A stretch of DNA of 64,000 bases from Ginglymostoma cirratum (lineage: Eukaryota). A program made the position numbers and the translations under genes. Under the pieces are notes generated by a model, which had not been told where the DNA came from, did not search any database, and saw only the letters and a program-made list of their open reading frames with translations. How positions within the stretch are numbered: the first letter of the stretch is position 1; each line of letters begins with the position of its first letter. The stretch covers positions 3,312,795-3,376,794 of the forward strand of contig JAHRHZ010000032.1 of NCBI GenBank assembly GCA_024137785.1, read 5' to 3'. Positions 1,194-62,930 of this stretch are shown piece after piece.

Positions 1194-1766
1194 CAGAGAT
1201 AATAGGTACTGCAGATGCTGGAGAATCCGAGATAACAAGGTGTGGAGCTGGATGAACACAGCAGGCCAAGCAGCATCATAGGAGCAGGAAAGCTTGACGT
1301 TTCGNNNNNNNNNNNNNNNNNNNNNNNNNNNNNNNNNNNNNNNNNNNNNNNNNNNNNNNNNNNNNNNNNNNNNNNNNNNNNNNNNNNNNNNNNNNNNNNN
1401 NNNNNNNNNNNNNNNNNNNNNNNNNNNNNNNNNNNNNNNNNNNNNNNNNNNNNNNNNNNNNNNNNNNNNNNNNNNNNNNNNNNNNNNNNNNNNNNNNNNN
1501 NNNNNNNNNNNNNNNNNNNNNNNNNNNNNNNNNNNNNNNNNNNNNNNNNNNNNNNNNNNNNNNNNNNNNNNNNNNNNNNNNNNNNNNNNNNNNNNNNNNN
1601 NNNNNNNNNNNNNNNNNNNNNNNNNNNNNNNNNNNNNNNNNNNNNNNNNNNNNNNNNNNNNNNNNNNNNNNNNNNNNNNNNNNNNNNNNNNNNNNNNNNN
1701 NNNNCGAAACGTCAAGCTTTCCTGCTCCTATGATGCTGCTTGGCCTGCTGTATTCATCCAGCTCCA
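1194..1766. mobile_element. Penelope-like (pLTR) insertion with inverted arms flanking the gap, family A
   Basis: Right arm 1705-1766 is the reverse complement of the inner part of left arm 1194-1304. A 15-bp direct repeat cagcttctttgaaat at 1179-1193 and 1767-1781 is the TSD. Confidence 0.75.
1305..1704. other. Assembly gap (400 N)
   Basis: Run of N. The ORFs spanning it are artefacts. Confidence 0.99.
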
Positions 1767-2715
1767 CAGCTTCTTTGAAATGTTGGTGGTAACTTGATGC
1801 AAGTGATTTGGTAGGTCGCTCCAGAGGGGAGTTAGGAGTCAACCAAATTTTTGCAGGAATGGAGTCATACAGAGGTCTGACTGGACAAGAATAGAAGGTT
1901 TTCTCACCGAAATGGCATTAGTGGGTCACTTGAATTTTTACAACAAGCTTACAGCTTGATGGTCAGATTTTTTAAATCTGAAATCAAATTTTCCAGTGGC
2001 TCCAGAGGAATTTGTGCCCACAGAGCTGGGTTTTGTTGGGGTCACAGTGGCTTCAATACTGTGCTTGAAAGATGGTAATATTCCCACCTTGGGCTTTTGG
2101 GGGATGTGTTCCCCACCCAATGGATCTATGCTAACCCCAGAAGCTGATGTGCTGCTATTGAGGCTTTCATCCATTTAAGGCCCAATATCCCAACTTCAGG
2201 AATTGTTGAACATTGGAGGTAGAGCAACACTTCAGTTCCAATTGTTCTGTCAATCGTGGGTGGGCACAAATGGTACTGCATCCAGTTGAGATACAGTGAT
2301 GGAAGCTACCTTCATAGCAAGGTATGTGGAATTGGGTCATCAGGCCCAGTTAAGCAGGTCCCATTGAGGGGTGTGAATGGATGATGAGGGTGGGGTTCTG
2401 GTAATGCCACTGGAATCACCATTGCTGCAGGTGCCTGATTAGGATCTCTCTGCAAGTCTCCAGGACTGTCATACCCAAATCGTGATATGCAATTTAGAAG
2501 AAAAAGTTGTGGAAGCATATGTAATCTTACTCTTAAGATCTTGGAGAAAATTCATGCTGAATGCAGGGAAGTGCACTGTAAAATCTGAAACAGGGATAAA
2601 TTAGGACACTTAAAAATTATATTTGGTTTGTGATTTTTCTATTTTTAAGACTAGCTTCTTCGTATTTAGAATTTTCATGCAGGCTGATTTCAAGAGGTGA
2701 TTACGTGATAAGAGG

Positions 2716-8379: not shown

Positions 8380-11300
8380 TCCAAATTGTCAATGATGGGG
8401 AAGCCCAGCACATCTGTGAGAAGACAAGGCTTAAGCATTTTGCAACCATCTTCAGTCACAAGTGCAAAACAAATGATCCATCTTGCCTCCTCCTGAGATT
8501 AAAGCATCACAGACACCAATCTTCGTCCAATTTGATTCACTCCACCTGATATAAAGAACAGCTGAAGGAATTGGATACAGAGGCTAGGGGCTGACAACAT
8601 CTCAGAAAGAGTGCTGTGTCCTTAACCAAGATGTTCCAGTACAGTACAATGCTGGTATCTATACGGCACTGTGGAAAATTGCTACTCAACAGTTCACTTT
8701 CAATCAACAGCAAAATGATAAAAGGTGTCATGTACAGTGATACCACACAGTACTTAGTCACCAACCACCTGCTCACTGATGCTCAGTTTGGGTTCTCCCA
8801 GGGCCACATGACACCTGACCTCATTGTAACTTCGATCCAAACACGGACAACATCAGATCGCAAGAATAAGGTGAGAGTGACTATCCATACCATCAAGCTA
8901 GCATTTGATCAAGTGTGGCATCAAGTAGCCATAGCAACACTGACGTCAATGGGAATGAAGGGAAAACTTGGCAGTGATTGATCCAGAAAGGACCATGGTT
9001 GCGTGAAGCCAATAATTTTATTTCCAGGATGTAGCTGCAGGAGTTTATTGAGGTAGTGTCTTAGACCTAACAATCTTTAGTTCATTCATTAATGACCTTC
9101 CCTCCATCATAAGGTCAGTAATGGAGCTGTTTCCAAATGATAACATAATGTTCAATACTGTTTGTGATTCTATTATGATCCCTACTGATGTAAATACTGG
9201 ATAAGACATATCCTGAAATAAAACCGAATTTAATAGATCATACCTTTTAAAGTTGGTTAATGGCTCATTACTGAAACATATTCACACAAGGCTACAGACA
9301 TTCTTTAACAGCAGAATATAAGATTTAAAAGAAAACCCAAGGCTTTACAAGCTGTTTTCTTTATCGGCTTGGAACAGACCACTTGTGACTTCTGTCTCAA
9401 CCTCTCAAAATTAAGGATAATCTATGTCTTTTCAAGTCGTAGTGTCATCACAATAAAGCTTTGTTTACTTTTTTTATAAATTGGAATAGAAGCAGCACGA
9501 AGGGGTGGGGTCAAGTTCTCACAGAACCAGGATTTTCGTTTAGCTTTCAGTAGCTATTGGGATTTGAAAGCTGCTATACATCTGTCCCTGCTACAGCAAA
9601 ACACTTGAGTTCCCTCTCTCTCTCTGAGTTGTCTCTTGATGTTCTTTTCTCCTGGACTGGAGAATTGCATGTGAGACAATCTATTTTACTGAATTTACCT
9701 TTTCAAAGGGTGTGTTTATGAGATGTTACCATATTGGAACAGTTGTTGTTTAATAATTAAATAATCTATTATTCTGTTAAGTTTTCCAAATCTCCATTTT
9801 TTTGCTTGCATTTTAACTATAGTACAGGAATAAAGTGTGTTTTGCCTCAAGTCTGGTAGTTTGACAATCAAATTGTATCTGGAACACAACACCTTACACT
9901 TGCCTTTAAAAAAAAGAAGTTGGGGGTCAAGGCTATCTTCTTAAAATATTTTGATGAGGTTTTAGTCTAGTCTCCAACATTATATACAGAAGACAATTAC
10001 TAAGAACTTAACACAAATATTAAAACAAAGTTTCAACCTGTTTATATCAATATACTTGTTACAGAGACTGACTGCTACCACTGTTAGTAAAACCTTTACC
10101 CAACTGATGTTCCCCCATTTCTCTCCAAGTCTGCTGACATGAACCACCTATGAAACCATTTCAGTTCTAACAACTTCCAACTTCTATACAAGCTCTTCTG
10201 GGTTGGTAGCTCCATAGACTAGAAACCAATTCTGTTGTGGTGACTGATTCCCCTGAAATGAACTGAAAAATGTAATCCTTCTTCGATGACAATAACTCCG
10301 CTTCACTGAACAGAACTCAGTTCTTCTGAAATGAATCTTTTAACCTTCTGGTCTGGGGCCAAAACTAATTGTTTAAATGAGTTTGCTGCATCAGTCATAA
10401 ATTTAACTATACAAATGTTTTATCCATCAACATTTCAGGGGTTTGCTCAAACAGTCGACTGTAGTCAAATCCTTCTTAGAAAAGATGTATTTAAGTTACT
10501 GTCCAAATTACTTTCAGAACTATATTTTTGAAGTACCTTCACAAAACTGACCAAAATCCAAATGCTCTTATTTTAAATCCAAATCCCAAAACGTGGTAAT
10601 GACATACTATACACGTTTATTACATGTCTCCAAAACTGAAGTCATCTATATCTCTGTCAGCAAGATTTAGACAATAGTCCTACTTGGGTTGATAGGTAGC
10701 AAGTAACTTTTATGCTACACAAGTGCCAAGTAATGACCACCTGCAACAAGGAAAAATCTAACCACTGCCCCTTACATTCAATGGTATTACAATTGCTGAA
10801 TCCACCACAGTGAATATCTTGGAGATTGCCATTGACCAGAAATGGAACTGGAATAAGCTATATATGTACAGTGACTACAAGACTAGGTCACGGGCTAGGA
10901 ATTCTGCAGTGAATCTTCTCCTGTTTCTGTGCAATCTGTATATGATATGTAAGGCATGAATCAGCAGTGTGATGAAATACTCTCCACTTGCCTGGATAAC
11001 TGTGCTTGTAACAATATTGAAGAAACTCAACACCATTCATGGTAACTTCATTTGCACCCCACCAATTAGCTTCAACATTCATTCTCTCCTCCACAGAAGC
11101 ACAGTGGCAGCAGCAAGTACAATCTACAAGAAAGCATTTTGGTAACTCATCAAAACTCTTCCAAAAGCATCTTCAAATCTTGAGACATCATTGCTGAGAA
11201 GGACAAGGGAAAAAGATGCATGGGAACACCACCACCTGTAAATCCCTCTCCAAGCCACACACCATCCTGTCTTCGAACTATATCGCTGTTGCTTCACCGT

Positions 11301-16624: not shown

Positions 16625-16975
16625 ATCATAGAATCCCTACAGTGTGGAAACAGGTCATTCAGCCCAATGGGTCCACACTGATCCTCCGAAGAGCATTCCA
16701 CCCAGAGCCATCACCACCACCCATGCCACCACTCCATCCCTGTAACCCTGCATTTCCCATGGCCAACCCCTCCCCCATCCAGCACACCCGTCCCTCCCCC
16801 CCACCACCCCAACCCCAGCCTGCACATCCATGGACACGAGAGGCAATTTAGCATGGCCAATCCACCTAACTTGCACATCTGTGGACCGTGGGAGGAAACC
16901 GGAGCACCCAATGGAAACCCACACAGACTTGGGGAGAATGTGCAAACTCCACACAGACAGTTGCCAAGGTGGAAG
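16625..16975 (-). mobile_element. HE1-like V-SINE (5'-truncated)
   Basis: Minus strand carries the V-domain gtgtggagtttgcacattctcccc...gggtgctccggtttcctcccac and a CR1-derived tail ending ctatgat. Homologous to 60380-60735. Confidence 0.8.
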
Positions 16976-28919: not shown

Positions 28920-30140
28920 ATAGGCACTTCTGGTTAAGCCAGCATTTATTGCCCACGCGTAATTACTCTCACCTTCCTGAACTGCTATAAACCCTTGTCA
29001 TGCGCGGACTCTCACAGTGGTATTAGGGAGTGAGTTCAAGGATTTTGACTCAACGACAGTGAAGGAAGGATGATATAGTTTCAATTCAGGATGATGTGTG
29101 GTTTGAAGAGGAACTTGCAGGTGATTGTGTTCACGTGTTTGTTGTCCTTGTCCTTCCAGGTGATAAATGCTGTGGATTTGGAAGATGCTATCTAAGGAGC
29201 CCCTCCTAAATTGTTGCTGTGCACCTTGTAGGTGGCACACACTGCTGCTATTGTTTGTAGGTAGTGAATGTTGAAGGCTGTGCGAGGGTATGTATCAAGT
29301 GGACTGCTTTGTCTTGGATATACTTAAGTTTCTTAAGTGTTGTCGAAGCTGCAGTCAACCAGGCAAGTGGACAGCATTCCAACACATTTCTGACTCGTGC
29401 CTTGTGAACGGTGAACAGACTTTGAAGAGTCAGGACGTAAGTTAATTGCCGCAGAATTTCCAGATTCTAACCTGCTTTTGTAATCACAGTATTTATAAGA
29501 CTAGTCCAGTTCAGTTTCTAGTGAATGGTAACCCAGGACATTGCTGTTGGTGGATTCAGTAATAGTAAAGTGCCATTGAATGTTAAGAGCAACAGTTAGA
29601 TTCTCACTTATCTGACACTTGTGTTGCGTGAATGTTACTTGCTATTAGTCACCCCAAGCCTTGATATTATCCCGGTTTTGCTGAATTTGAACATGGTCTG
29701 CTTCAGTATCTGAGGAGTCGCTAACGGTGTTGAAAATTGTACAATCATAAACGAAAATCCCACTTCTGACCTTACAATAGAGGGAAGGTCATCGATGCAG
29801 CAACTGAAGATATTTGAGCCTAGGACACTATCATGAGGATCTCCTGCAGTGATTTTGTGGAGCTGACATAATCGATCTCCAACAAGGACACCAATTTCCT
29901 TTGCGATAGGCATAACTCAAAACAACAGTTTCTCTGAATCCCATTGAATCAAGTTTAGGCAGCGCTCCTTGATGCCAGACACGGTGAAATGTTACCTTGA
30001 ATGTAAGGGCACTCATTCTCATCTCACTTTTGTCCATGACTGGACATCGGTTGTTATGAGGTCAGAAGACAAGTGTACCTGAAAAAATCTAAACTGGACG
30101 TTAGTGAGCAGGTTATTGTTAAGTGAGTGTCCCTAACATA
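28920..30140 (-). mobile_element. Degenerate CR1-like LINE (RT region to 3' end)
   Basis: ORFs 29831-30037 (TFHRVWHQGALPKL) and 29635-29913 (PHDSVLGSNIFSCCIDDLPSIVRS) are frameshifted RT motifs. Same family as 8380-11435. Confidence 0.82.
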
Positions 30141-30991
30141 CTTCGTGTTATTCGGAACAGAGAAAATTAGGCTAGGTTTACAGGACTTATATCTCCGAAT
30201 TACCTCTGTTTCACCTCACGTGAAGTCACTATCAGTTAGTTCTGTGCCCCCGTCCCTCTAAATAACACATAGTAGATATTGCGGCGGAAATGATGGGATA
30301 TTGCGAATAGCAAACAGTCACAACATTCAATAGGGATGGAGTGGTTAACAGATCACAGAATGAGTTGGCAATCACTGGGTATTTTTTGCATTGATGGTCT
30401 CCTGAATTTATTCTATTTATGCCGCAAAACTCTTGCAAGAACAGAAGATTGTCTTCACTTTAAAATAAAGTTGAAGAGTTTTGTTTTGTTTATGTGGGAG
30501 TGCTGTCACATCTGACGGTGTCAGTTATTAATGACAAGATATGGAGTTAATCCAGCCACTCTCGCCATGGCTACAAAGCTCGAAGGAATTCCTATTGACA
30601 GGAAGGTAACTGGTGTGAGGTGACACTGGACGCAAGGCCGCTTTCTGTGCATGGTGCCTGGCGCCAGGTAAAGTTGATTCAAAACAGTCATGGCTGAAGG
30701 TAGGAAAGTGGGATCTAGATGTGCGTCCAAATGCGATGAGCGCACCATCGTGTCAGATTTCCAACAGCCTTGCGTGATAAGCAATTATTTGGCCAGATAG
30801 TCTATCACATTCTGTTCGCATCCAAAGAAAGAAAGAGGGAAAGTGCGCCAATAAATGCCTCAACAAGGGCCTCCCATAGATCTTCACAAACATAGGCTAC
30901 TTTTGCACTCAGTCATATTGCAATTAAATCAGCTACTTTGGGCAAAACTGGGCTCGTACGAACAGTTCATAAAGCCATTAATTAATTTTGA

Positions 30992-31027
30992 TTTTCTGAT
31001 GAAGGGTTCAGGCCCGAAACGTCAAGT
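30992..31027 (+). ncRNA. Minimal type I hammerhead ribozyme motif
   Basis: CUGAUGA (30996-31002), A, stem II GGGU/GCCC, then GAA-ACGU-C (31016-31023). The palindromic ACGU replaces helix III, as in PLE-associated minimal hammerheads. Confidence 0.65.
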
Positions 31028-31124
31028 TTTCCTGCTCCTATGATGCTGCTTGACCTGCTGTGTTCATCCAGCCCCATGCTTGTTATCTCGGATTCTCCAG
31101 CATCTGCAGTACCTTTTATCTCTG
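30993..31124 (+). mobile_element. Penelope-like short insertion, family A, with TSD
   Basis: Same family as the copies at 1194 and 6483; flanked by the 13-bp direct repeat aattaattttgat (30980-30992, 31125-31137). Confidence 0.78.
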
Positions 31125-31229
31125 AATTAATTTTGATGCTGTCATTGATTGAAGGGGGAATATTAGCCTGGAAAGGTGCGTGGTCTTCAATTGTGCCACT
31201 TATTCATTACCGCTCTTCATACAATGCAA

Positions 31230-31403
31230 GACCAAAAACAAAATTGCTGGAGAGGCTCAGCATGTCAGGCAGTTCTGAGGAAGAGTCACCGGACCCGAAC
31301 GTTAACTCTGTTTTTCTCCTTCACAGATGCTGCCAGACCTGCTGAGCCTTTCCAGCAATTCTGTTTCTGTTCCTGATTTACAGCATCCGCAGTTCTTTCG
31401 GTT
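31230..31403 (+). mobile_element. Penelope-like short insertion, family B, with partial inverted arm and TSD
   Basis: 14-bp TSD ttcatacaatgcaa (31216-31229, 31404-31417). 31242-31272 is an inverted copy of about 31330-31360. Hammerhead-like core agtt-CTGAGGA-agagtcaccggaccc-GAAcgtt-aact at 31271-31307. Confidence 0.75.
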
Positions 31404-34249
31404 TTCATACAATGCAAACTAGTTACAATATTAACTGCGCACCCATTTCTGTTGAGCTCGAAACCAGCCAGAGTATCTGCAGATACAGCCTATTCTGACT
31501 TTTAGTATCTAGAAGCATTGCATTAGACTCCAACCTCGTAGCTTTTTGTTTTCTCTCAGAAAACTTTTTATTCGTCGGAAACCACTTTATTTTCTGTCCT
31601 GTGTTTTGACAATGTTCGGGAGGAGATCATCAAACCAGCAGATAAAAAAATTACTGAGCCAACTTGCAGTCCAAATGATTGTTTTTAATAATTCACAGAA
31701 GCACAGGGTGCAGAAGGAGGCCGATGGTCCATCTTGTCTGTACTGGGTCTCCAAATAAATACCGTCCTTCCTACCCCTCCGCATTGTCGCTGTTATAAAA
31801 TGTAAACAATCGTCTAATACGGCCTGCAATGCCTCGACCGAACCTGCTCCCCACTGTCTTCCAGGCAGTGAGTTTCAGACCTGATGCGCTCATGGCGTAA
31901 CAAAGTTATTTTTCCGCTACATAGCATTTACTTCTTTCGAAAATCGCTTTCGGTCTGCTCCTTCGCGTTTTTGATCGGGTTCAACCAATGGGAACAGTTT
32001 CTCTCCGTCTCCTCTGTTCAGACCCTCGTGAATTGATCCTTCATAATTGGAAGAAGCATGAGCAAAGCAAATTCTCGCCACTTTTCTATTCATCACGTTT
32101 GCTGGCCTACAGCAACAAGGTGCCAGTTTACTTTGGGACTTGCAGATGTCAATTAAAATGTATCCTATATAAAAATCCTCTCGTCCCGGCGTTTTCCAAT
32201 GAACGCTTTCCTGGTAGCGCGTGTTCCTGTTGGAAGTTATAAATTGTTTATTGCAGCTCCGGGTCAGTGAAAAGCCTCAGGCCTGGCATACAATGATCTG
32301 ATTTCTATTTCTGATGATCGTTTTTAACTCACAGCAGTTGCAGAGTAAAGCTACTTGCTTGGGTGCATTTCAACATTGGCGAAGAACCGAGAGCGAAATA
32401 CTGATTTTATAATTCAGTGTTTTAGAGAGAGAGAGGTTGGAATTGATGAAATCAAGGATGGGATTCTTTTAGTCAAGTTATATAGGCCAGACCGTTCTAT
32501 CCAATCAAAGGGAATTTAAAGTCTTTGGCTCAGGTCAAAACGAGCAGAATTACTCAGCAAGTTTATTTGGAACTAAACGGTCCCCTCTCCCTCCCCCTCC
32601 TCTGGATAGAAAGTGGGCCAGGAAAATCCCGTTTCTCCAAACCTTGAAACTCTCTGAATGTACATTAACAGCAGCCCCCAGCCTCCGGGTGAAATGAATG
32701 ACGCGCAGAAAGATCGAAGGAAATTACTGACACTCGTTCAGAAAAGTCTCAGTCTCAGTTTGGCTAGGAACCGCGATCTTAACCCGATTTATACCGGATA
32801 TACCTGGATCTGGATTGGACTAACATCGCTGTATGTTTGTTGGAATGGTCATACCTCCCAAAGTCCGACTGCATCCTCGGATCGGGAATCTGGATACGGC
32901 TTTTTGAACAATGCTATGTGAGGATTTTCTTTTCCTCTGGAGGATTCCCGCTTGCTCAGACGCAGAATGAGTTCTGCACCAACAGAAACACACAAACAGT
33001 ACAAACTGATCCTTCGTTTACAATCTCCGGGTATTCTCTCACCGGTTATCAAATTCAAACCATACACCTCTTACCTTTTTCTTTAATCTGCAGCCGAGTC
33101 AAAACGATAACCCAAAAGTACTGCAAACGCATTTTATCTTGGTAAATTCAACGGTTCTCTGTTTACAACGATGAACTCAGGACTTCAGTCATTAATATTT
33201 AGATTTTTGTTTACAAATGTTTCAGATACATTCAGCCTGATAACTAGCGTCGAAAGCTCAACCCTTGCTAATATTTTCCAGCGTTTTTTTTCCAACTTTA
33301 AAACTAATTGTCGACGCTGTCGTGATGCATTTATTTTGATCGCCCAATGCTCATGTTTGCCATTTACAGTGATCGTCAGTTTAATTCCCCGGAGAAACTT
33401 TGCCCCAGAAGAGAAAACTTATTTTCTGACGCACCAGTTCCTGCCTGATCAACAGAATCGTTGCAACTTTGCCTGCTGACGAACGCAGTTCACAGAAAAT
33501 CCCCCTGACAGAACAGTCCCCACTGTATATATCGGTGTAAGTAGCTTCACTCCATGGCTGGGAACGATTACATCATTAACAGAGAGGCTTAAGGATCAGA
33601 AATCCGGCCAGCTCGTGAATTTCCACCCGTATATCAAAGGATTTTACGCACATTAATTAGATGGCTAACTAGGCTTTATTCGTACATTTTCGTTCTTTTA
33701 ATACCTAACGTTTTTGAATTATTGAACATCAACTATTTTCACCGGGGTGCTTCAGCAGCTTTGCCTCATTTTGTTACACTTTGAAAATTCACTTGGGCTA
33801 GGTCGCAGCCATATTTTAAAAAATGCTCACGACGGTCAGAAATTGTATATATGTTTTTTTCTAAAAAAAAATCCACTCTTTATCTTTCAAAACTAGCAAC
33901 GTGGACATTTTCCTATGGCTATATTTGTTTAAGCACATCTTTTATGAACGTCTAATTGTTCAGTAGAGTTGGCGAGCCTCCATACTAATGGGAATTACAC
34001 AGTATAAATGTATTAGCTTATAACTTTCAACGATATTTTTTTAAAAAGCACATAACATATGCAGGATAGACGAGTTCCTAATCCCAGCTAATTTCTTTGA
34101 GTTTACATCCTCCGATGATTTTTTTCTATATTAACTAAACCATATGAAATAAAAGGAGAAATGAGAATTCCGCCCACAATTTATTTCAGATTTTCCCAGT
34201 CTTTAGCCAATACAGTCAGACAGATTCAGTGTTGCGGGCATATAAATAC

Positions 34250-37677: not shown

Positions 37678-38460
37678 AATTTAGATAAATGTAAGCTGCT
37701 GCGTTTTGGAAAGGCAAATCAGGGCAGGACTTATACACTTAGTGGTAGGGTCTCAGCGAGTGCTGCTGAACAGAGGCACCTTAGAGTGCAGATTCATAGT
37801 TCCTTGAAAGTGGTGTCACAGGTAGATCGGATAGGGAAGGCAGCGTTTGGTATGCTTGCCTTTATGGGTTAATGCATTGAGTATAGGAGTTGAGAGGTCA
37901 TGTTGCAGCTGTACAGGACATTGATTAGGCCACTTTTGAAGTATTGCATGCATTTCTGGTCTCCCTGCTATAGGAAGGATGTTGTGAAATTTGAAAGGAT
38001 TCAGAAAAGATTTACGAGGATGTTAACAGGGTTGGAGGGTTTGAGCTATACGGAGAGACTGAACAGGCTGGGGCTATTTTCCCTGGAGCGTGGGAGGCTA
38101 AGGGGTGACCTTATAGTGGTTTATAAAGTCATGAGGGTCATGGAGAGGGTAAATGGGGTGAGGGAGTCCAAAACTAGGTTAAAGGTGAGAGGGGAAAAAT
38201 ACAAAAGGGACCTAAGGGACAACTGTTTTACACAGAGGGTGGTGTGTGTATGGAATGAGCTGCCAGAGGAAGTGGTGGAGGCTGGTATGATTACAACATT
38301 TAAAGGCATTCAGAGGGGTATATGAATAGGAAGGGTTTAAAGGAATATGGGCCAAATGCTGGAAAACAGGACCAGATATATATCGGATATCTGGTTGGCG
38401 CACACGAGTTGGATCGAAGGGTCTGTTTCCATGCTTTATATCTCTATGACTCTATGACTT
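37678..38460 (+). mobile_element. CR1 LINE 3' end (relatively young)
   Basis: ORF 37900-38325 LYRTLIRPLLKYCMHFWSP...RLRGDLIVVYK is the CR1 ORF2 C-terminus; ends in the tandem tail ctatgactctatgact. Confidence 0.9.
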
Positions 38461-38842
38461 TAAATCATTTTTAAAAAGCAGCCAGTTAATCTCAGAATGT
38501 GCCTTCAACAGGAGATAAGGAAACCAGTGCAAGGGTTACCTACTTCACCTTTTCCTTGCCATCCTATTTTTATACTGATAAACATAGATATGGTTGGAAT
38601 AATGTCTGCACAGTATTTATTAAGTCTTGTCTTATGAGAAGACAGTCATTATGGCATGTTGCATTATTAATTTGAATAGGGTTGAAAACAGGTGCAGCAC
38701 CCAAAATGGGCCATGATCAGCAAAGGTACTGTATATCACAATATGTAATTTTATGGCTCCACTTCCAAAAAGCTAGAAGCCCAAATGAAAGTTTAATTGA
38801 CAGTACATAAAAATATGGTCAGGGCTTAACAGCAAGCACATA

Positions 38843-39335
38843 ATCATAGAGTCATAGAGCATGGAAACAGACCCGTGGGTCCAACAAGTCCATGCTGGAC
38901 ATAATCCTGAACTAAACTAGTCCCACCCACCTACTCCTGGCCGATATCCCTCCAAACCTTTTCTATTCACATACTTACCTAAGTGTCTTTTAAACATTGT
39001 AACTGTATCCACACCCACCACTTCCCAGGAAGTTCATTGTGAACTACCCTGAGTAAAAAAACTGCCCATCATGTCTTTTTTAAAATCTCTTTCCTCCCAC
39101 CTTAATACTATGCTGACTAGTCATGAAATTCCCATATTCTAGGGAAGAGACACCCACCAATAACTCTATCTATACCCCACATGATTTTATAAAACTCTAT
39201 AAGGTTACCTCTCAACCTTCTATGCTTCAGTGATAAATGTCCCAGCCTATCCAACCTTTCTTTATAACTCAAATCATTCATACCCAGCAACATCCTGGTA
39301 AATCTCTTCTGAACCCTTTCTGGCTTAATAATATC
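38843..39335 (-). mobile_element. CR1 LINE 3' end
   Basis: ERVQKRFTRMLLGM...RRLRGNLIEFYKIM; tail reads tcatagagtcatagag on the + strand. Confidence 0.88.
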
Positions 39336-40492: not shown

Positions 40493-40632
40493 CTAAAATA
40501 GAACAAAGAAATGTGCATACTGGAAATCTGAAACAAAACAGAAATTGCTGGAGAAACATAGCATGTCTGGAAGCATCTGTGGAAAGAAATCAGAGTTCAT
40601 GTTTCAGGTGCAGTGAGCCTTCTCAGAACTGC
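40493..40632 (-). mobile_element. Degenerate family-B Penelope-like copy
   Basis: Minus strand agttctgagaaggctcactgcacctgaaacatgaactctg...ccagacatgctatgtttctccagcaatttctgttttgtttcagatttccag resembles 31271-31400. Confidence 0.6.
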
Positions 40633-40639
40633 GTTTCTG

Positions 40640-41440
40640 TTCTTCCAGCCAAAGTGGTCAAGTTGCGACTTTCACATACTATGCTCCAGCTGCGACACTT
40701 TTTCCCCATTCAAAGCCTAAGTATGTGTCTTTGTGGACACATTTAATCCTTTTCACTACATACTTTTCTACTGATTATTGTTTTATCAGTAGACTTAGCT
40801 AAATCACCTGCTGTTCCTTCATCCAAGTCACTAAAAAAGCTCAGAAGTTGTTGAGACCCCAGAAATGATCTCTGTGGCACTCTATTGCGGATTGACAATA
40901 TGAACCTGAAAATGAACCATTTATCCTGATTATGTTTCCTGTTCATTAGCCAATCCACTTTCTGCATTAATTTTTAATGATGGCACCATGGATTCTTATC
41001 TTATGCAGTAACCATTTATGTGGAATCTTGACAAACATCTGTTGGAAATCCAAATAAATAAACCTACTGGCTCAGTTTATTCACATTGCTTGTTAGGTCC
41101 TCAAAGAACACCAGCAAATTTGTCAAACACAACTTTCCTTTCACGAAAGTCTAATGGCACTGCTTGAGTGTGTTATGATTTTCTAAATGTCATACTAATA
41201 CCTCCTTAATAATGGATTCTAGTATTTTCCCAATGAAGAATGACAGACTAATTGGCCTGCAATTTCCTGCTTTCTTCTCCCTCCTTTTGACAAAAGTGGC
41301 ATTACATTTGCAGTTTTCCAATCTGATGGAAGCTTTCTAGAATCCCAGGAACTTTGGAAGATTACAATACATCAATAATCTTTGTAGCCACTTCCTTCAA
41401 GAGCCCAAGATGCAGGTCATTAGGTCCCAAAGACTTATTA
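40640..41440 (-). mobile_element. Old CR1 LINE RT fragment
   Basis: ORF 40743-40967 contains RVPQRSFLG...SDLDEG...KSTDKT, a decayed VPQGSVLGP / FADDT region. Confidence 0.65.
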
Positions 41441-44507: not shown

Positions 44508-45220
44508 ACATAGAGTCATAGTGTGATATGGTACAGAAACAATCAGTCTATGCTGACCATAATCCCAAACTAAACTAATCCCACCTGCCTGCTCCTGGCC
44601 CTTATCCCTCTATCCAAGAGTCTTTTAAATATTGTAATTGTACCCACATTCACCACTTCCTCAGGAAGTACATTCCACGTGCGGACCATCTTCTGTGTAA
44701 AAAATTTGCCCCCATGTCTTTTTTTAAATCTCTCCTTTCACCTTAAAAATGTGCCCCTAGTCTTGAAATCCCCCCTCCTAGGGAAAGACAACTACCATTA
44801 CCTCTATCTATACCGCTCATTAGTTTATAAACTTCCATCAGTTTGCCTCACAATCTCCTGCACTCCAGTGAAAAAAATCCCAGCCTATCAAGCCTTTCTT
44901 TATACCTCAAACCTTCCATACCTGGCAAATCTCTTCTGAGCCCTCTCCATCTTGATAATATCTTTCCTATAACTGGGCGACCAAAACTGGACACACTGTT
45001 CCAGAAGAGGCCTCACCAATGTCCTGTACAACCTCAATATGACTTCCCAACTCCTTTACTCAAAGGACTGAGTAATGAAGTCAAGCGTGCCAAATACCTT
45101 TTTAACCACCCTGTCTATATGTGATGCAAACTTCAAAGAATTGTGTAATTGCACCCCTAGGTCCCTCTCTTCTATAACACTACCCAAGGTTCTACCGTTA
45201 ATTGTCTAAGCCCTACCCTG
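44508..45220 (-). mobile_element. CR1 LINE 3' end
   Basis: catagagtcatag tail on the + strand; strong similarity to 38843-39335. Confidence 0.85.
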
Positions 45221-55499: not shown

Positions 55500-56412
55500 T
55501 TAGAAGCTGTTGAAAGCTATTTAAGCCCTTGAACCAGCTCCACCATTCAATAAGACTATACAAGATCACAGCCTCAACTCCACATTCCTGCTTACTATCT
55601 CCCTTCCCCCAATTATCTATGGCATTCTTCTTTGTCAAGTTGACTCTAACTCCACTGCTTCTCTATTGGGGTTCCAAAGGAGCTGAACCCTTTGGAAAAA
55701 AAAAATTCTCCTAATCCCAGACTTAAATGGAAGATCTGTTAATTTTAATCGATAGTTCTAGTGCCTCCCATAATGGGAGCATCTCTCTGTATCCACCCTG
55801 TTAAGTATCCCAACGAATTCTTGTCTTATTGACGTCACTTCTTACACTTTCAAATTTTATGGATAGATTCCAATTCCCCAACCTTCTCTCATAACAGTAT
55901 TTATCATCCCAGATAGTGGATGGGCGAACCTTCTCTGACCTGCTTTGAAGGCATTTATGTCCTTCTCCAAATAAGGACACCAGCACTCCAGGTGTTGTCT
56001 CACCAATACCCTGTTCAATTTTACCTAACGTGGCACTCTTCAAATCCAATCCCCTTAGAATAAATGGCAACCTTCTATTTACCTTCCTAATCTCCTGCTG
56101 CACTTGCCTACCAACTATGTACTTCATATACCAGGACAGCCAGATCTCTTGTTAGCTCAGAATTCTACAATCACTTTCCATTTAAACAACAGACTGTTTT
56201 TCTGTTCTTCACAGTAAAGTGGACAAATTCATATTTTTTCTACATTATACTTCAACTACCATACTTACGCTGACTGACTTGACCAATCTATATCTCTTTG
56301 TAGGCTCCACATTAGCTCTTCGGAAACTACTTTCTTACCTGTCTTTGTTGCATTTAGTCAACACAACAGCCATATATTTTTCTCCTTCATCCAAGTCAGT
56401 GACATAGTTCAT
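55500..56412 (-). mobile_element. Old CR1 LINE 3' fragment
   Basis: Minus-strand pieces VTDLDEG and QVQQEIRKVNRRLPFILRGL are decayed CR1 ORF2. Confidence 0.65.
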
Positions 56413-58444: not shown

Positions 58445-59790
58445 AGAACATAAGGAACAGTAGCATAATTGGACCATTTGGCCCAGCCCTTCAAAGCTGT
58501 TCAATGTTCGAATAAGACCAAGGTTAGTCTTCTCCCTCAACTTTACATTCAACAATCTAGCCTGATGATCCTTAATTCCCTTGGTACTCTAAATCTATTG
58601 ATTCCTGTCTTGAACACTTTCAATGGTGGAGGGAGACGATTCAAAAGAATCACAAACATTTGAGTGAAGAAATTTCTCCTTATCTTTGTCCTAAATGGCC
58701 ACCCCTTATTCTGAAACCATGGCCCTGATTCTCCACCTGGTGTAAACAGTATGTCAGCATCTCTTCTGTTTCACTCGAAGAATTTTGTGTGTTTCCATTA
58801 GATCACTTCAATCTTCTAAATGTTAGGGAAACATAGACCTCATGTACTTAATCTCTCCTCTTAGGACAATCCTTCATTCCAGGAATCAGTCTCATGAATC
58901 TCTGTTGCACTCTCTGTAATGTAAGTATGTTATAAGAAGACCAAGAGAAAATGCTGTACTCCAGGAGTGGCCTCATCAGTATCCCGAAAAAAATGCAAGC
59001 CTACTTTAATTTTTTTACTCCAATTACAGTCACAAGTAGACAGGTTTGTGAAAGTGGTGTTTGGTATGCTTGCCTCTACCGGTCAGTGCATTGCGTATAG
59101 GAATTGGGAGGTCATCTTATGGCTGTAAAGGACATTGGTTAGGCCATTTTTGGAATATTGCATTCAATCCTGGTCTCCCTGCTATAGGAAGGATGTTGTG
59201 AAACTTGAAAAATGGTTTAGAAAAGATTACAAGGATGTTGCCAGGGCTGGAGGGCTTGAACTATAGGGAGAGACTGAATAGGGTAGGGCTATTTTCCCTG
59301 GAGTGTCAGAGGCTGAAGGGTGACCTTATAGAAGTTTATAAAATCATGGGGGGAGCTTAATAGGATAAATAGAGGGCGGTACATGTATGGATTGAGCTGC
59401 CAGAGGAAGTGGTGGAGGCTGGTACAATTACAACATTTAAAAGGCATCTGGATGGGTACACGAATAGAAAAGGTTTAGAGGGATACGGGCCAAATGTTGG
59501 CAAATGGGACTAGATTTATCTAGGAAATCTGCTCAGCATGTATGATTTGGACTGAAGGGTCTGCTTCCATGCTGTATAGCTCGATGACTCTATGATTCTT
59601 AAAAAACATGATAGTAACCTTCCCAATTACTTGCTAAATCTGCATGCTAACTTTTTAGTTCATATACATACAAGGATACGCAAGCCACTGAATGCAAACA
59701 TTTATTGGTTCCATCACTATTCAAAAATATTCTGCGATTTCATTTCTCCTACGCAAGTGGATAACAACAATTTGCCATATTGCATTCCAC
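58445..59790. mobile_element. Old minus-strand CR1 with a younger plus-strand CR1 3' end (about 59027-59597) nested inside
   Basis: The inner copy matches 37810-38460 and ends gactctatgattct. The flanks are collinear halves of a minus-strand CR1 (tail ataagaacataag). Confidence 0.75.
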
Positions 59791-60379: not shown

Positions 60380-60735
60380 TCATAGAATCACTACAGTGCG
60401 GAAAGAGGCTACTCAGCCCATTGAGTCTGCACCAACCCTCTGAACAGCATCCCACCCAGACTCAGCCCCCACCCCGTCCCTGTAACCCCACATTTACCAT
60501 GGCCAACCCACATGATCTACATATTCCTAGACACTACAGGGAAATTTAGCATGGCCAATTCACTTAAGCTGCACATCTTTGGACTGTGGGAAGAAACCAG
60601 AACACCTGGTGAAAAACCACAGAGACACATCAAGAACATGTAAACTTCACACAGACAGTTACCCAAGGCTGGGATCGAACCTGGGTCCCTATCGCTGTGA
60701 GGCAGCAGTGTTAACCATTGAGCTATTGTGCTGCA
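60380..60735 (-). mobile_element. HE1-like V-SINE (near full length)
   Basis: tRNA-like head (ggttaacactgctgcctcacagcg...ggttcgatccc), V-domain and ...gattctatga tail. Confidence 0.8.
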
Positions 60736-61189: not shown

Positions 61190-62930
61190 ACTAGGACCAG
61201 TGCCAGGCATTCTGAAAATGAGATGTCAACCTGAAGTTACCATGCAGGAATACAGATATGGTAAAATATTTCAAGAAAATGGCTACGGACAGAGCAAAAT
61301 GATCTTGTGACCAATGGACGAAACCAAAGCTTTGGAGTCTTGTCAAATCTAGACATGAATGTTGGTGGATAATTGATCGATTAATTGGACACTCCATAAC
61401 ACCCAGGTCCAGCATATGATTTCAAGAGACAAGGCTGAAGTGTTTACAACCATCTTCAGCAGGATGGATAATGCACATTGGCTTCCTGAGATCCAAAATC
61501 ACAGATGCTAATCTTCAACCAATCAGATTCACTTCAACAAAATATTTTTTTAAAATGGCTACATGTAAGATACACAGTAGAGGCTGTTATACTCTGAATA
61601 GTCAGTCTGTAAAAGAAGAAACCAGAGCCAGAGCCAGTCTTTACTTGGTATAAATTTATTCACAGAATGAAATATTACAGGTATAGATCTACTGACACCA
61701 CTCTACTCCTGTGACACTGAATGTCTTTTTATGCGTGCTCACATAACCACCAAAATACCGTCCTCAAATGTGTATGTACTTAACCTCAATTGGTACAATT
61801 AATGAAGGTTACAGGCACCAATAAAATTGCAGCTCTAATACTGAAGACATCTGTTCCTGAATTTATCATGCTTCTAGCCAAGCTGATCCAGTACAGTTAC
61901 AACATTGCCATTTAACCAATAAAGCGGAAAATTGTGCTGTATATCCTGATCACAAACAAGTAGGACAGATCCAAAACTAGCCAATTATTGCCTCATAATT
62001 CTACTCTCAATTTTACATTTCTTTTGTCAAAGTGATGCAAGAAGTCAGCGACAGTGCCACCAGGTGGCACATACCCACCAATTACCTGGTCTTTAATTCA
62101 GAGTTTGGATTCCACCAAGGGCATTCTACTCCAGACCTCATGATGGATCAAACATGAAGACAAGAGTGGAATTCCACATAGTGAAACAGTCTGAGCCCTG
62201 GACAATATTCATACTTGGCCTCATAAGTAGCAAGTAACATTCATGCTGTACAAACACAAGGTAAGGACTACCTCCAAGAAAGGGGAGTCTAACCATCTCC
62301 CCTAGTCATTCAAATATATCACCATCATCATTCTGGAAGGTGATCACCATTGACCAGAAATCTAACTGCATCTATATATGGCTGGGTATTTTGTAGCCAG
62401 TGACTCACGTCCTGACTCCCTAAAGCACATTCACCATCTATAAGGTACAAATCAGGAACGTGACACAACACTTTCCACTTGTCCTTCTGAATACAGCTGA
62501 AATGATACTCTAGAAGCTGGACACTGTCCACAGCAGAGCAGTCTCCTGCTTGTTTGGCACCTAATCAACCACATTCATTGCCCCGATTAATAGTGCACTC
62601 TGGTAACAGAGTATGCCCTGTACAATATGCACCAAGAGCAACTCACTAAGGCTTCAATGTAAGAATCTCCTTAAACCTGCAACCTTTACCAACTAAAAAA
62701 TGAAGAACAGTAGGCAAATGGGAATCTCCCCTGACTTGGAAATTGATTACCATTTCTTCATTACCGCTGGGTCAAAATCTTGAAACTCCTTCCTTAACAG
62801 CTCTGTGGGTGTCCCTTCACAACAGGGACAACAGTTATTCAAGAGAAGGCTCACTACCATATCTTCAAGGGCAATTGAGGATGGGCAATAATTGCTGGCC
62901 TTGCCAGAAACGGCCAGACTACAATGATTA
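61190..62930 (+). mobile_element. Degenerate CR1-like LINE (same family as 8380-11435)
   Basis: acaaggctgaagtgtttacaaccatcttcag, gagtttggattccaccaagggcattc (FGFHQGH) and the tail gggcaattgaggatgggcaataattgctggccttgccag. Confidence 0.75.

What the first reader, a model, noticed from the sequence alone, without database searches (positions are those of the whole stretch)
30980..31137. 132-bp TSD-flanked retro-insertion that starts with an intact minimal hammerhead ribozyme
Seen in sequence: uuuu-CUGAUGA-A-GGGU(ucag)GCCC-GAA-ACGU-C-aag, so every conserved hammerhead core nucleotide is present, with stem II, a weak helix I and a palindromic ACGU in place of helix III. The unit is bounded by a perfect 13-bp TSD. 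Established knowledge: Penelope-like elements carry such minimal type I hammerheads in their pLTRs, thought to cleave as dimers. Inference: this abundant shark repeat is a non-autonomous, ribozyme-bearing (retrozyme/PLE-type) retroposon rather than an ordinary SINE or MITE. At least four family-A copies occur in these 64 kb.
Basis: partly seen in the sequence, partly recalled or inferred. Interest (0 to 1): 0.8.

Follow-up and report, generated by a model that had tools for sequence, protein, structure and literature searches.

The report
Ribozyme-bearing head of shark Penelope retrotransposon
The 132-base insertion is real and carries a stripped-down hammerhead ribozyme motif, but it is the short front end of a very abundant protein-coding Penelope-type jumping gene, likely copied off the capped start of that element's RNA, and not a separate self-cutting element.

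Summary
Observation confirmed: 132 bp (30993-31124), 13-bp target duplication, complete minimal type I hammerhead core. The unit is not an independent retrozyme. It is the first 132 nt of an autonomous Penelope-like element (RT + GIY-YIG, Neptune-type linker): 100% identical to long copies, running on into the ORF, over 52,000 near-identical copies, with the known 35-nt tail and inverted copies. Minimal hammerheads in such repeats were described in 2014, and this scan noted them before in other shark-type genomes. Added here: short copies do not begin at the cleavage site (3 of 76 at positions 30-34). They pile up at the ribozyme's first base (20 of 76), on an initiator-like CA, often behind an extra G (65 of 100, against 20 of 100 at the cleavage site). 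A second family begins at TCAGTT. This fits reverse transcription that starts inside the RNA and runs off its capped 5' end, leaving the ribozyme uncut. One small control for the G was not significant, covariation is weak, and cleavage and the RNA start are untested. New member of a known kind.

The parts
30980..30992 (+). left target-site duplication, 13 bp, AT-rich
   Evidence: exact match to 31125-31137
30993..31124 (+). solo head of a Penelope-like element: unit positions 1-132 of the element's 5' region (pLTR plus tail)
   Evidence: 100% identical to 16 other places in G000; in long copies preceded by 3'UTR and GIY-YIG ORF and followed by 37 nt of 5'UTR and the ORF start
30993..31026 (+). 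minimal type I hammerhead motif: helix I 3 bp, CUGAUGA, extra A, stem II 4 bp, GAAA, palindromic ACGU, predicted cut after C31023
   Evidence: sequence; descriptor scan 18 vs 0 in shuffles; not the lowest-energy fold of a monomer
31090..31124 (+). 35-nt optional tail between the two preferred 3' ends (unit positions about 97 and about 132), inferred to be the two RT start sites
   Evidence: 3' ends of 100 copies: 49 at 91-102 and 49 at 122-132; tail = RT start sites in PAc (PMC11167929)
31125..31137 (+). right target-site duplication
31230..31403 (+). neighbouring insertion of a second Penelope-like family (B): short inverted piece, then a decayed hammerhead head; 14-bp duplication 31216-31229 / 31404-31417

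Best explanation
The insertion is the first 132 bases of an autonomous Penelope-like retrotransposon with a Neptune-type linker, and it was likely made when the element's reverse transcriptase started inside the RNA's 5' region and ran off the RNA's likely capped 5' end, leaving the ribozyme uncut. Shown: the unit is part of the coding element, in the order 3'UTR | hammerhead unit | 37 nt | ATG | RT | linker | GIY-YIG. Copies end at two sites 35 nt apart and start preferentially at the ribozyme's first base. Inferred: an internal Pol II promoter starts the RNA at the A just before the UUU of helix I (CCA+1TTT; TCA+1GTT in family B). The GIY-YIG nuclease nicks AT-rich DNA with a 9-16-nt stagger and RT primes at position about 132 or about 97. 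On the downstream repeat of a tandem RNA it reads back through the ribozyme into 3'UTR and ORF (long copies). On the first repeat it reaches the cap after 97-132 nt, often adds a C opposite the cap G, and then finishes (solo copy, as here), folds back (inverted pair) or jumps to another template (partial tandem). The hammerhead would cut only as a dimer or with the element's protein, and such cutting is not what defines the inserted unit.
For: Identity: 14 of 30 best loci run upstream into 3'UTR/ORF. Pfam GIY-YIG is above its cut-off and RVT_1 just below it (E about 2e-6). DKG, YIDD, C-x4-CxxC and CCHH are seen in long copies. Near-full copies L343, L344; 3'UTR-unit-5'UTR-ORF in L341; partial tandems L342, L345-L348 whose second unit starts at position 0/1. 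52,087 exact matches of a 41-mer. No short-versus-long variant. Start site: of 76 copies not cut by N, 48 reach position 3 and 20 of them stop in -3..+3 (0.074 per nt, against 0.0028 per nt over -4..-200; p 3e-17). Genome-wide a non-C base precedes A0 in 2,455 copies against 18,398 with CC (11.8%), but precedes the cleavage-site base in only 821 against 50,151 (1.6%). That base is G in 65 of 100 listed at A0 and 20 of 100 at the cleavage site (hand counts; background share 0.25). Among true truncations G is 18 of 30 vs 4 of 23 (p 0.002), and 11 of 17 when copies beside an inverted piece or a gap are left out. Family B: 8 of 30 run upstream, 1 is cut by N, 21 begin within about 2 nt of the A of TCAGTT (read by eye). 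Literature: internal RT start and cleavage not needed in PAc (PMC11167929); internal Inr/DPE promoter in Penelope (PMC2377424); extra G read as a cap copy in L1 (PMC9341517).
Against: No RNA evidence: only assembled contigs were available, which cannot show starts. At random upstream truncations G was 6 of 14, not significantly below 65 of 100 (p 0.14). 7 of the 18 G cases adjoin an inverted copy or gap, and several copies with a resolved duplication have no extra G (L018, L230, L325, L335). The window copy itself starts at position 1 behind ...GAT of the duplication, so it is uninformative on the G. 19 of 76 copies start at +4..+23, partly by microhomology in fold-backs. Members of one inverted insertion are counted twice among the 100. 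A hairpin is predicted across the start site in long RNAs and could stall RT instead. The Inr consensus is recalled, not from a call.
Confidence: 0.7

Rival explanations
1. Same element, but the pile-up at position 0 is ordinary 5' truncation: RT copying the downstream repeat stalls where the C-rich 3'UTR or a hairpin begins, and the extra G comes from terminal transferase bias or from adjacent inverted copies.
For: Predicted hairpin pairing UCAGAA of the 3'UTR with UUCUGA of the core; C-rich tract directly upstream; second cluster of starts at +9..+13; G control not significant.
Against: G excess is absent at the cleavage-site control and stays in non-inverted copies. Family B, with a different upstream sequence, stops at the same place relative to the core. 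Elements that carry 5'UTR and ORF also begin at -1..+1 (L253, L255, L269, L280/L342).
Confidence: 0.17
2. One reading: an independent non-autonomous retrozyme or SINE-like family with its own RNA, released by dimeric hammerhead cleavage and mobilised in trans.
For: Short copies are the majority in unselected DNA. Solo heads would keep an internal promoter and the RT start sites, so some could be re-copied. Retrozymes are reported to derive from pLTRs (bioRxiv 10.64898/2026.07.22.740005).
Against: No variant separates 37 short from 33 long copies. The window's rare loop variant occurs in the long context in 89 of 158 exact matches. No head-to-tail arrays. Starts do not match the cut site.
Confidence: 0.07
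3. Circular-template model (PMC4209133): hammerheads cut the tandem RNA at position 31/32, the monomer is ligated into a circle, and RT reads across the sealed cut site.
For: Explains why almost all copies span the cut site intact and why the ORF can lie both upstream and downstream of the unit.
Against: A circle has no end at position 0, so it does not explain the pile-up or the extra G. PAc hammerhead mutants still insert in vitro, and no RNA reads ended at the cut site (PMC11167929).
Confidence: 0.06

Closest known systems
Minimal hammerheads (min-HHR) of metazoan Penelope-like elements, Cervera & de la Pena 2014 (PMC4209133; parts 1-2 of 4 read)
   Same: Core without helix III, extra base before stem II, G10.1-C11.1 pair, palindrome at 15.2/16.2; mostly single dispersed motifs, some close pairs on opposite strands, a few in full elements, including fish Neptune elements.
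   Different: Helix I is 3-4 bp and stem II 4 bp (shorter than their Schistosoma motifs); sharks are not named in the parts read; tens of thousands of near-identical copies, where they stress high variability.
Canonical EN+ PLEs, Neptune clade (Craig et al. 2021, PMC8557442; passages read)
   Same: RT with DKG, C-terminal GIY-YIG with CCHH, CX2-5CxxC linker, 5' truncation, partial tandems, adjacent inverted copy, 30-40-bp tail.
   Different: Clade placement rests on the linker motif only (shared with Nematis); no RT tree with named references was made. Clear 9-16-bp duplications in non-microsatellite targets.
PAc, Poseidon element of Anolis (Frangieh et al. 2024, PMC11167929; main text to Methods read)
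   Same: Hammerhead at the pLTR-ORF junction; two internal RT start sites defining the tail; no sign that the cut site defines copy ends.
   Different: In PAc the ORF starts inside stem II and RT starts 111-118 nt into the ORF; here the likely ATG is at unit position about 170, downstream of both ends. They do not report a capped start or run-off copies in the text read.
Animal non-LTR retrozymes (PMC7229834, passages; bioRxiv 10.64898/2026.07.22.740005, parts 1-3 of 5)
   Same: Type I hammerhead, short non-coding unit, kinship to pLTRs, dispersed monomers exist.
   Different: Defined as tandem arrays, usually with canonical hammerheads, giving circular RNAs; here single or inverted units that are pieces of the coding element.

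Membership tests
EN+ Penelope-like element | single ORF with RT and C-terminal GIY-YIG endonuclease | tested here: met
   (GIY-YIG above cut-off; RVT_1 E 2e-6, 1-2 bits under cut-off); about 1,020 codons estimated from L344; no uninterrupted full ORF seen
EN+ Penelope-like element | DKG motif in RT and CCHH motif in EN | tested here: met
   KPADKGG; YCIRCTRCGFLYIGE...EH...NH in long copies
EN+ Penelope-like element | pLTR partial tandems and adjacent inverted 5'-truncated copy | tested here: met
EN+ Penelope-like element | optional 30-40-bp tail | tested here: met
   35 nt; 49 of 100 short ends, 49 of 100 long ends
Neptune clade | CX2-5CxxC linker between RT and EN | tested here: met
   CNRRKCYTC
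Neptune clade | RT groups with named Neptune elements in a tree | not tested
   no named reference sequences on hand; homologues are unnamed or uncharacterized
PLE minimal hammerhead | complete core, extra base before stem II, G10.1-C11.1, palindrome in place of helix III | tested here: met
PLE minimal hammerhead | covariation in helices I and II | tested here: inconclusive
   20 copies, 19 of them chosen by a scan that demanded pairing: 85.6% of cells paired, 3 of 9 pairs changed on both sides, 40-261 of 500 shuffles as high; U-G to G-C between families A and B
PLE minimal hammerhead | self-cleavage as a dimer | not testable with these tools
   monomer hammerhead fold -4.0 vs best fold -9.3 kcal/mol; co-folding two 40-mers did not give the dimer hammerhead
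non-LTR retrozyme | tandem array of two or more hammerhead-bearing units | tested here: not met
   window copy is single; 3 close same-strand pairs in 90 loci, two the same place
non-LTR retrozyme | independent non-coding lineage | tested here: not met
non-LTR retrozyme | expressed as circular RNA | not testable with these tools
   only contigs available
tRNA-derived SINE or MITE | tRNA-like head, or terminal inverted repeats | tested here: not met
   no Rfam match in the window; no terminal inverted repeat of 30 nt or more for this copy; Pol III boxes not scanned separately

The most novel reading that the evidence does not exclude
The solo copies are a fossil record of the element's capped RNA start. 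The hammerhead occupies the first 31 nt of the mRNA, so cleavage, possible only when two RNAs pair through ACGU or the element's protein assists, would cut off the cap. The ribozyme would then be a concentration-dependent off-switch or translation switch of Penelope-like elements, not a tool for releasing the copying template.
Probability: 0.2. Interest if true: 0.7.

Novelty: new member of a known kind. Interest (0 to 1): 0.33.

Why it matters
As an object it is ordinary: a shark member of the hammerhead-bearing Penelope-like elements, worth annotating because it is very abundant and young and its short or fold-back copies look like SINEs or MITEs. What is useful is the statistics of the copy ends. 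The role of these ribozymes is called unclear in PMC8557442. Tens of thousands of copies show that inserted DNA starts at the ribozyme's first base and not at its cut site, which supports in a genome what was seen in vitro for PAc and gives an exact position to test by 5' RACE.

Tried and rejected
Rfam at gathering thresholds: nothing. Sequencing runs: only Logan contigs, RNA status guessed. Laying four runs showed loose ends at unit positions 1 and 130-131 but cannot show RNA starts or cleavage, so it is not used as evidence. Unselected sample: 502,000 of 864,000 bases read N, so only 362 kb counted, and no genome-wide copy number is extrapolated from it. Covariation test: weak and biased. 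Folding gave no support for the active fold. First G control underpowered; a second was run. In one search the upstream translations of minus-strand loci were mis-anchored and were not used, except L305, checked. Lunse et al. (dimer cleavage) is not held and is known only through a review passage. Not in print as far as searched: a shark hammerhead/Penelope report and a capped-start run-off origin of solo pLTRs. These cover only the open library. Repbase/Dfam, the closed supplements of the 2026 preprint (one chondrichthyan genome) and the unread supplements of PMC4209133 may hold this family. Rejected: SINE, MITE, chance motif, independent retrozyme.

Full report
Observation. The window holds a 132-bp insert at 30993-31124 between exact 13-bp duplications. 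It opens with UUU-CUGAUGA-A-GGGU(UCAG)GCCC-GAAA-CGUC-AAG, a complete minimal type I hammerhead core with C31023 as the predicted scissile base. The bare core pattern is at chance level in the window and Rfam has no match, but a descriptor with both stems finds 18 motifs in 362 kb of N-free unselected genome and none in 20 shuffles. The window has 5 pieces of the family at 4 places.

What it belongs to. A genome search found 16 other places identical over all 132 bp. In 14 of the 30 best loci the unit is preceded by a shared C-rich stretch and a reading frame that matches Pfam GIY-YIG. Twenty longer loci show RT motifs (DKG, YIDD), a C-x4-CxxC linker and a GIY-YIG domain with CCHH. By the criteria in PMC8557442 (passages) this is a canonical endonuclease-positive Penelope-like element with a Neptune-type linker; no tree was made. 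The closest named homologues are uncharacterized carpet-shark proteins at 89-93%. A 41-mer of the unit has 52,087 exact matches.

The unit is the element's head, not only its tail. 1,003 copies run on past position 132. Most of the 30 examined continue into one sequence that leads after 37 nt to an ATG and the N-terminus of the ORF. L341 shows 3'UTR, unit, 5'UTR, ORF; L343 and L344 show 5'UTR, ORF, 3'UTR, unit; L342 and L345-L348 show ORF pieces joined to a second unit that starts at position 0/1. In 100 copies taken in genome order by the 41-mer, 49 end at 91-102 and 49 at 122-132. This is the optional tail, which in PAc lies between two internal RT start sites (PMC11167929). Duplications of 9-14 bp were found in 16 of the 100, and up to 16 bp elsewhere. 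Head-to-head inverted pairs are common.

No separate lineage. At every position with 3 or more deviating letters, 37 short and 33 long copies did not differ (p 0.46-1.0). The window's rare loop variant sits in the long context in 89 of 158 exact matches. Head-to-tail arrays, which define non-LTR retrozymes (PMC7229834; bioRxiv 10.64898/2026.07.22.740005), were not found beyond 3 close pairs in 90 loci, two of them one place.

Where copies start. Of the 100, 24 are cut by N gaps and left out. Of 76, 20 start at -3..+3, 19 at +4..+23, 3 at 28-32, 6 at 33 or later, and 28 further upstream. The stop rate at -3..+3 is 26 times that over -4..-200; pairs from one inverted insertion count twice. Genome-wide, a non-C base precedes position 0 in 2,455 copies against 18,398 with the natural CC, and precedes the base after the cut site in 821 against 50,151. 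So copies start at the ribozyme's first base, not at its cut. That base is the A of CCATTT, and in a second Penelope-like family (B; 1,202 exact matches, GIY-YIG remnants upstream in L351, L352, L373) the A of TCAGTT. Both fit the initiator consensus (recalled), and Penelope has an internal promoter with Inr and DPE (PMC2377424). The base before A0 is G in 65 of 100 listed copies, against 20 of 100 at the cut site and a background share of 0.25. Among true truncations it is 18 of 30 against 4 of 23 (p 0.002). An untemplated G is read as a copy of the cap in L1 (PMC9341517). Against: a smaller control at random upstream truncations gave 6 of 14 (p 0.14); 7 of the 18 G cases adjoin an inverted copy or gap; several copies with resolved duplications lack the G; a hairpin is predicted over this site; and no RNA reads were available.

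Mechanism. Shown: anatomy, two 3' ends, one preferred 5' end, shared variants. Inferred: a capped RNA starts at position 0; the nuclease nicks AT-rich DNA; RT primes internally at about 97 or 132. On a downstream repeat it yields long copies. On the first repeat it runs off the cap and yields solo heads such as this one, fold-back pairs, or template jumps that build partial tandems. The ribozyme motif is conserved across families (U-G to G-C in helix I; formal covariation weak) and is not the favoured monomer fold, in line with dimer or protein-assisted cleavage reported for such motifs (PMC4209133; review PMC6765202; PAc). Whether this one cuts is untested.

Known and new. Minimal hammerheads in pLTRs, dispersed single motifs and opposite-strand pairs were described in 2014 (PMC4209133), and solo pLTRs and Inr-like motifs in rotifer elements (PMC3846280, passages). 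Three earlier notes of this scan on other shark-type genomes reach the same class; they were read after the analysis. The capped-start run-off reading was not found in the searches made, which cover only the open library; unread supplements and repeat databases may hold the family. PMC6155905 was seen as passages only. Verdict: real, new member of a known kind; interest 0.33, with a 0.2 chance that the cap-removing switch reading holds.

Noticed in passing
window 31216-31417: Second Penelope-like family (B) inserted about 90 bp downstream: inverted piece, decayed hammerhead (one A of GAAA lost), tail, 14-bp duplication; 1,202 exact young matches in the genome.
   Followed up: yes
window 1194-1775: Head-to-head pair of family A heads across a 400-N gap; such palindromes commonly break this assembly, so inverted copies are undercounted.
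   Followed up: partly
window 40534-40664 and 56193-56229: Older, decayed pieces resembling family B heads (families D13, D14).
   Followed up: no
window 37815-38464, 38837-39335, 44509-45124, 59029-59602: Several copies, on both strands, of another abundant repeat of about 600 bp or more (73-88% alike), probably the 3' part of a LINE.
   Followed up: no
window 16725-16965 and 60465-60663; 10670-10850, 29324-29675, 62197-62368: Two further dispersed repeat families (72-87% alike), unidentified.
   Followed up: no
L299, L300, L302, L305-L307 (N-terminal ORF): The element's ORF has a variable-length Thr/Ala/Pro/Asp-rich repeat linker (ADVTPPTA-like units) between the N-terminal domain and the RT.
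   Followed up: no
L086:3102-3149, L149:1362-1407, L267:2498-2543: Further hammerhead variants (CUGAAGA core, other stem II pairs) suggest more, older Penelope-like families in this genome.
   Followed up: partly
P0103: A ray protein annotated as divergent protein kinase domain 1C isoform matches the element's ORF at 65% over two thirds of the query, probably a gene model that absorbed an insertion.
   Followed up: no
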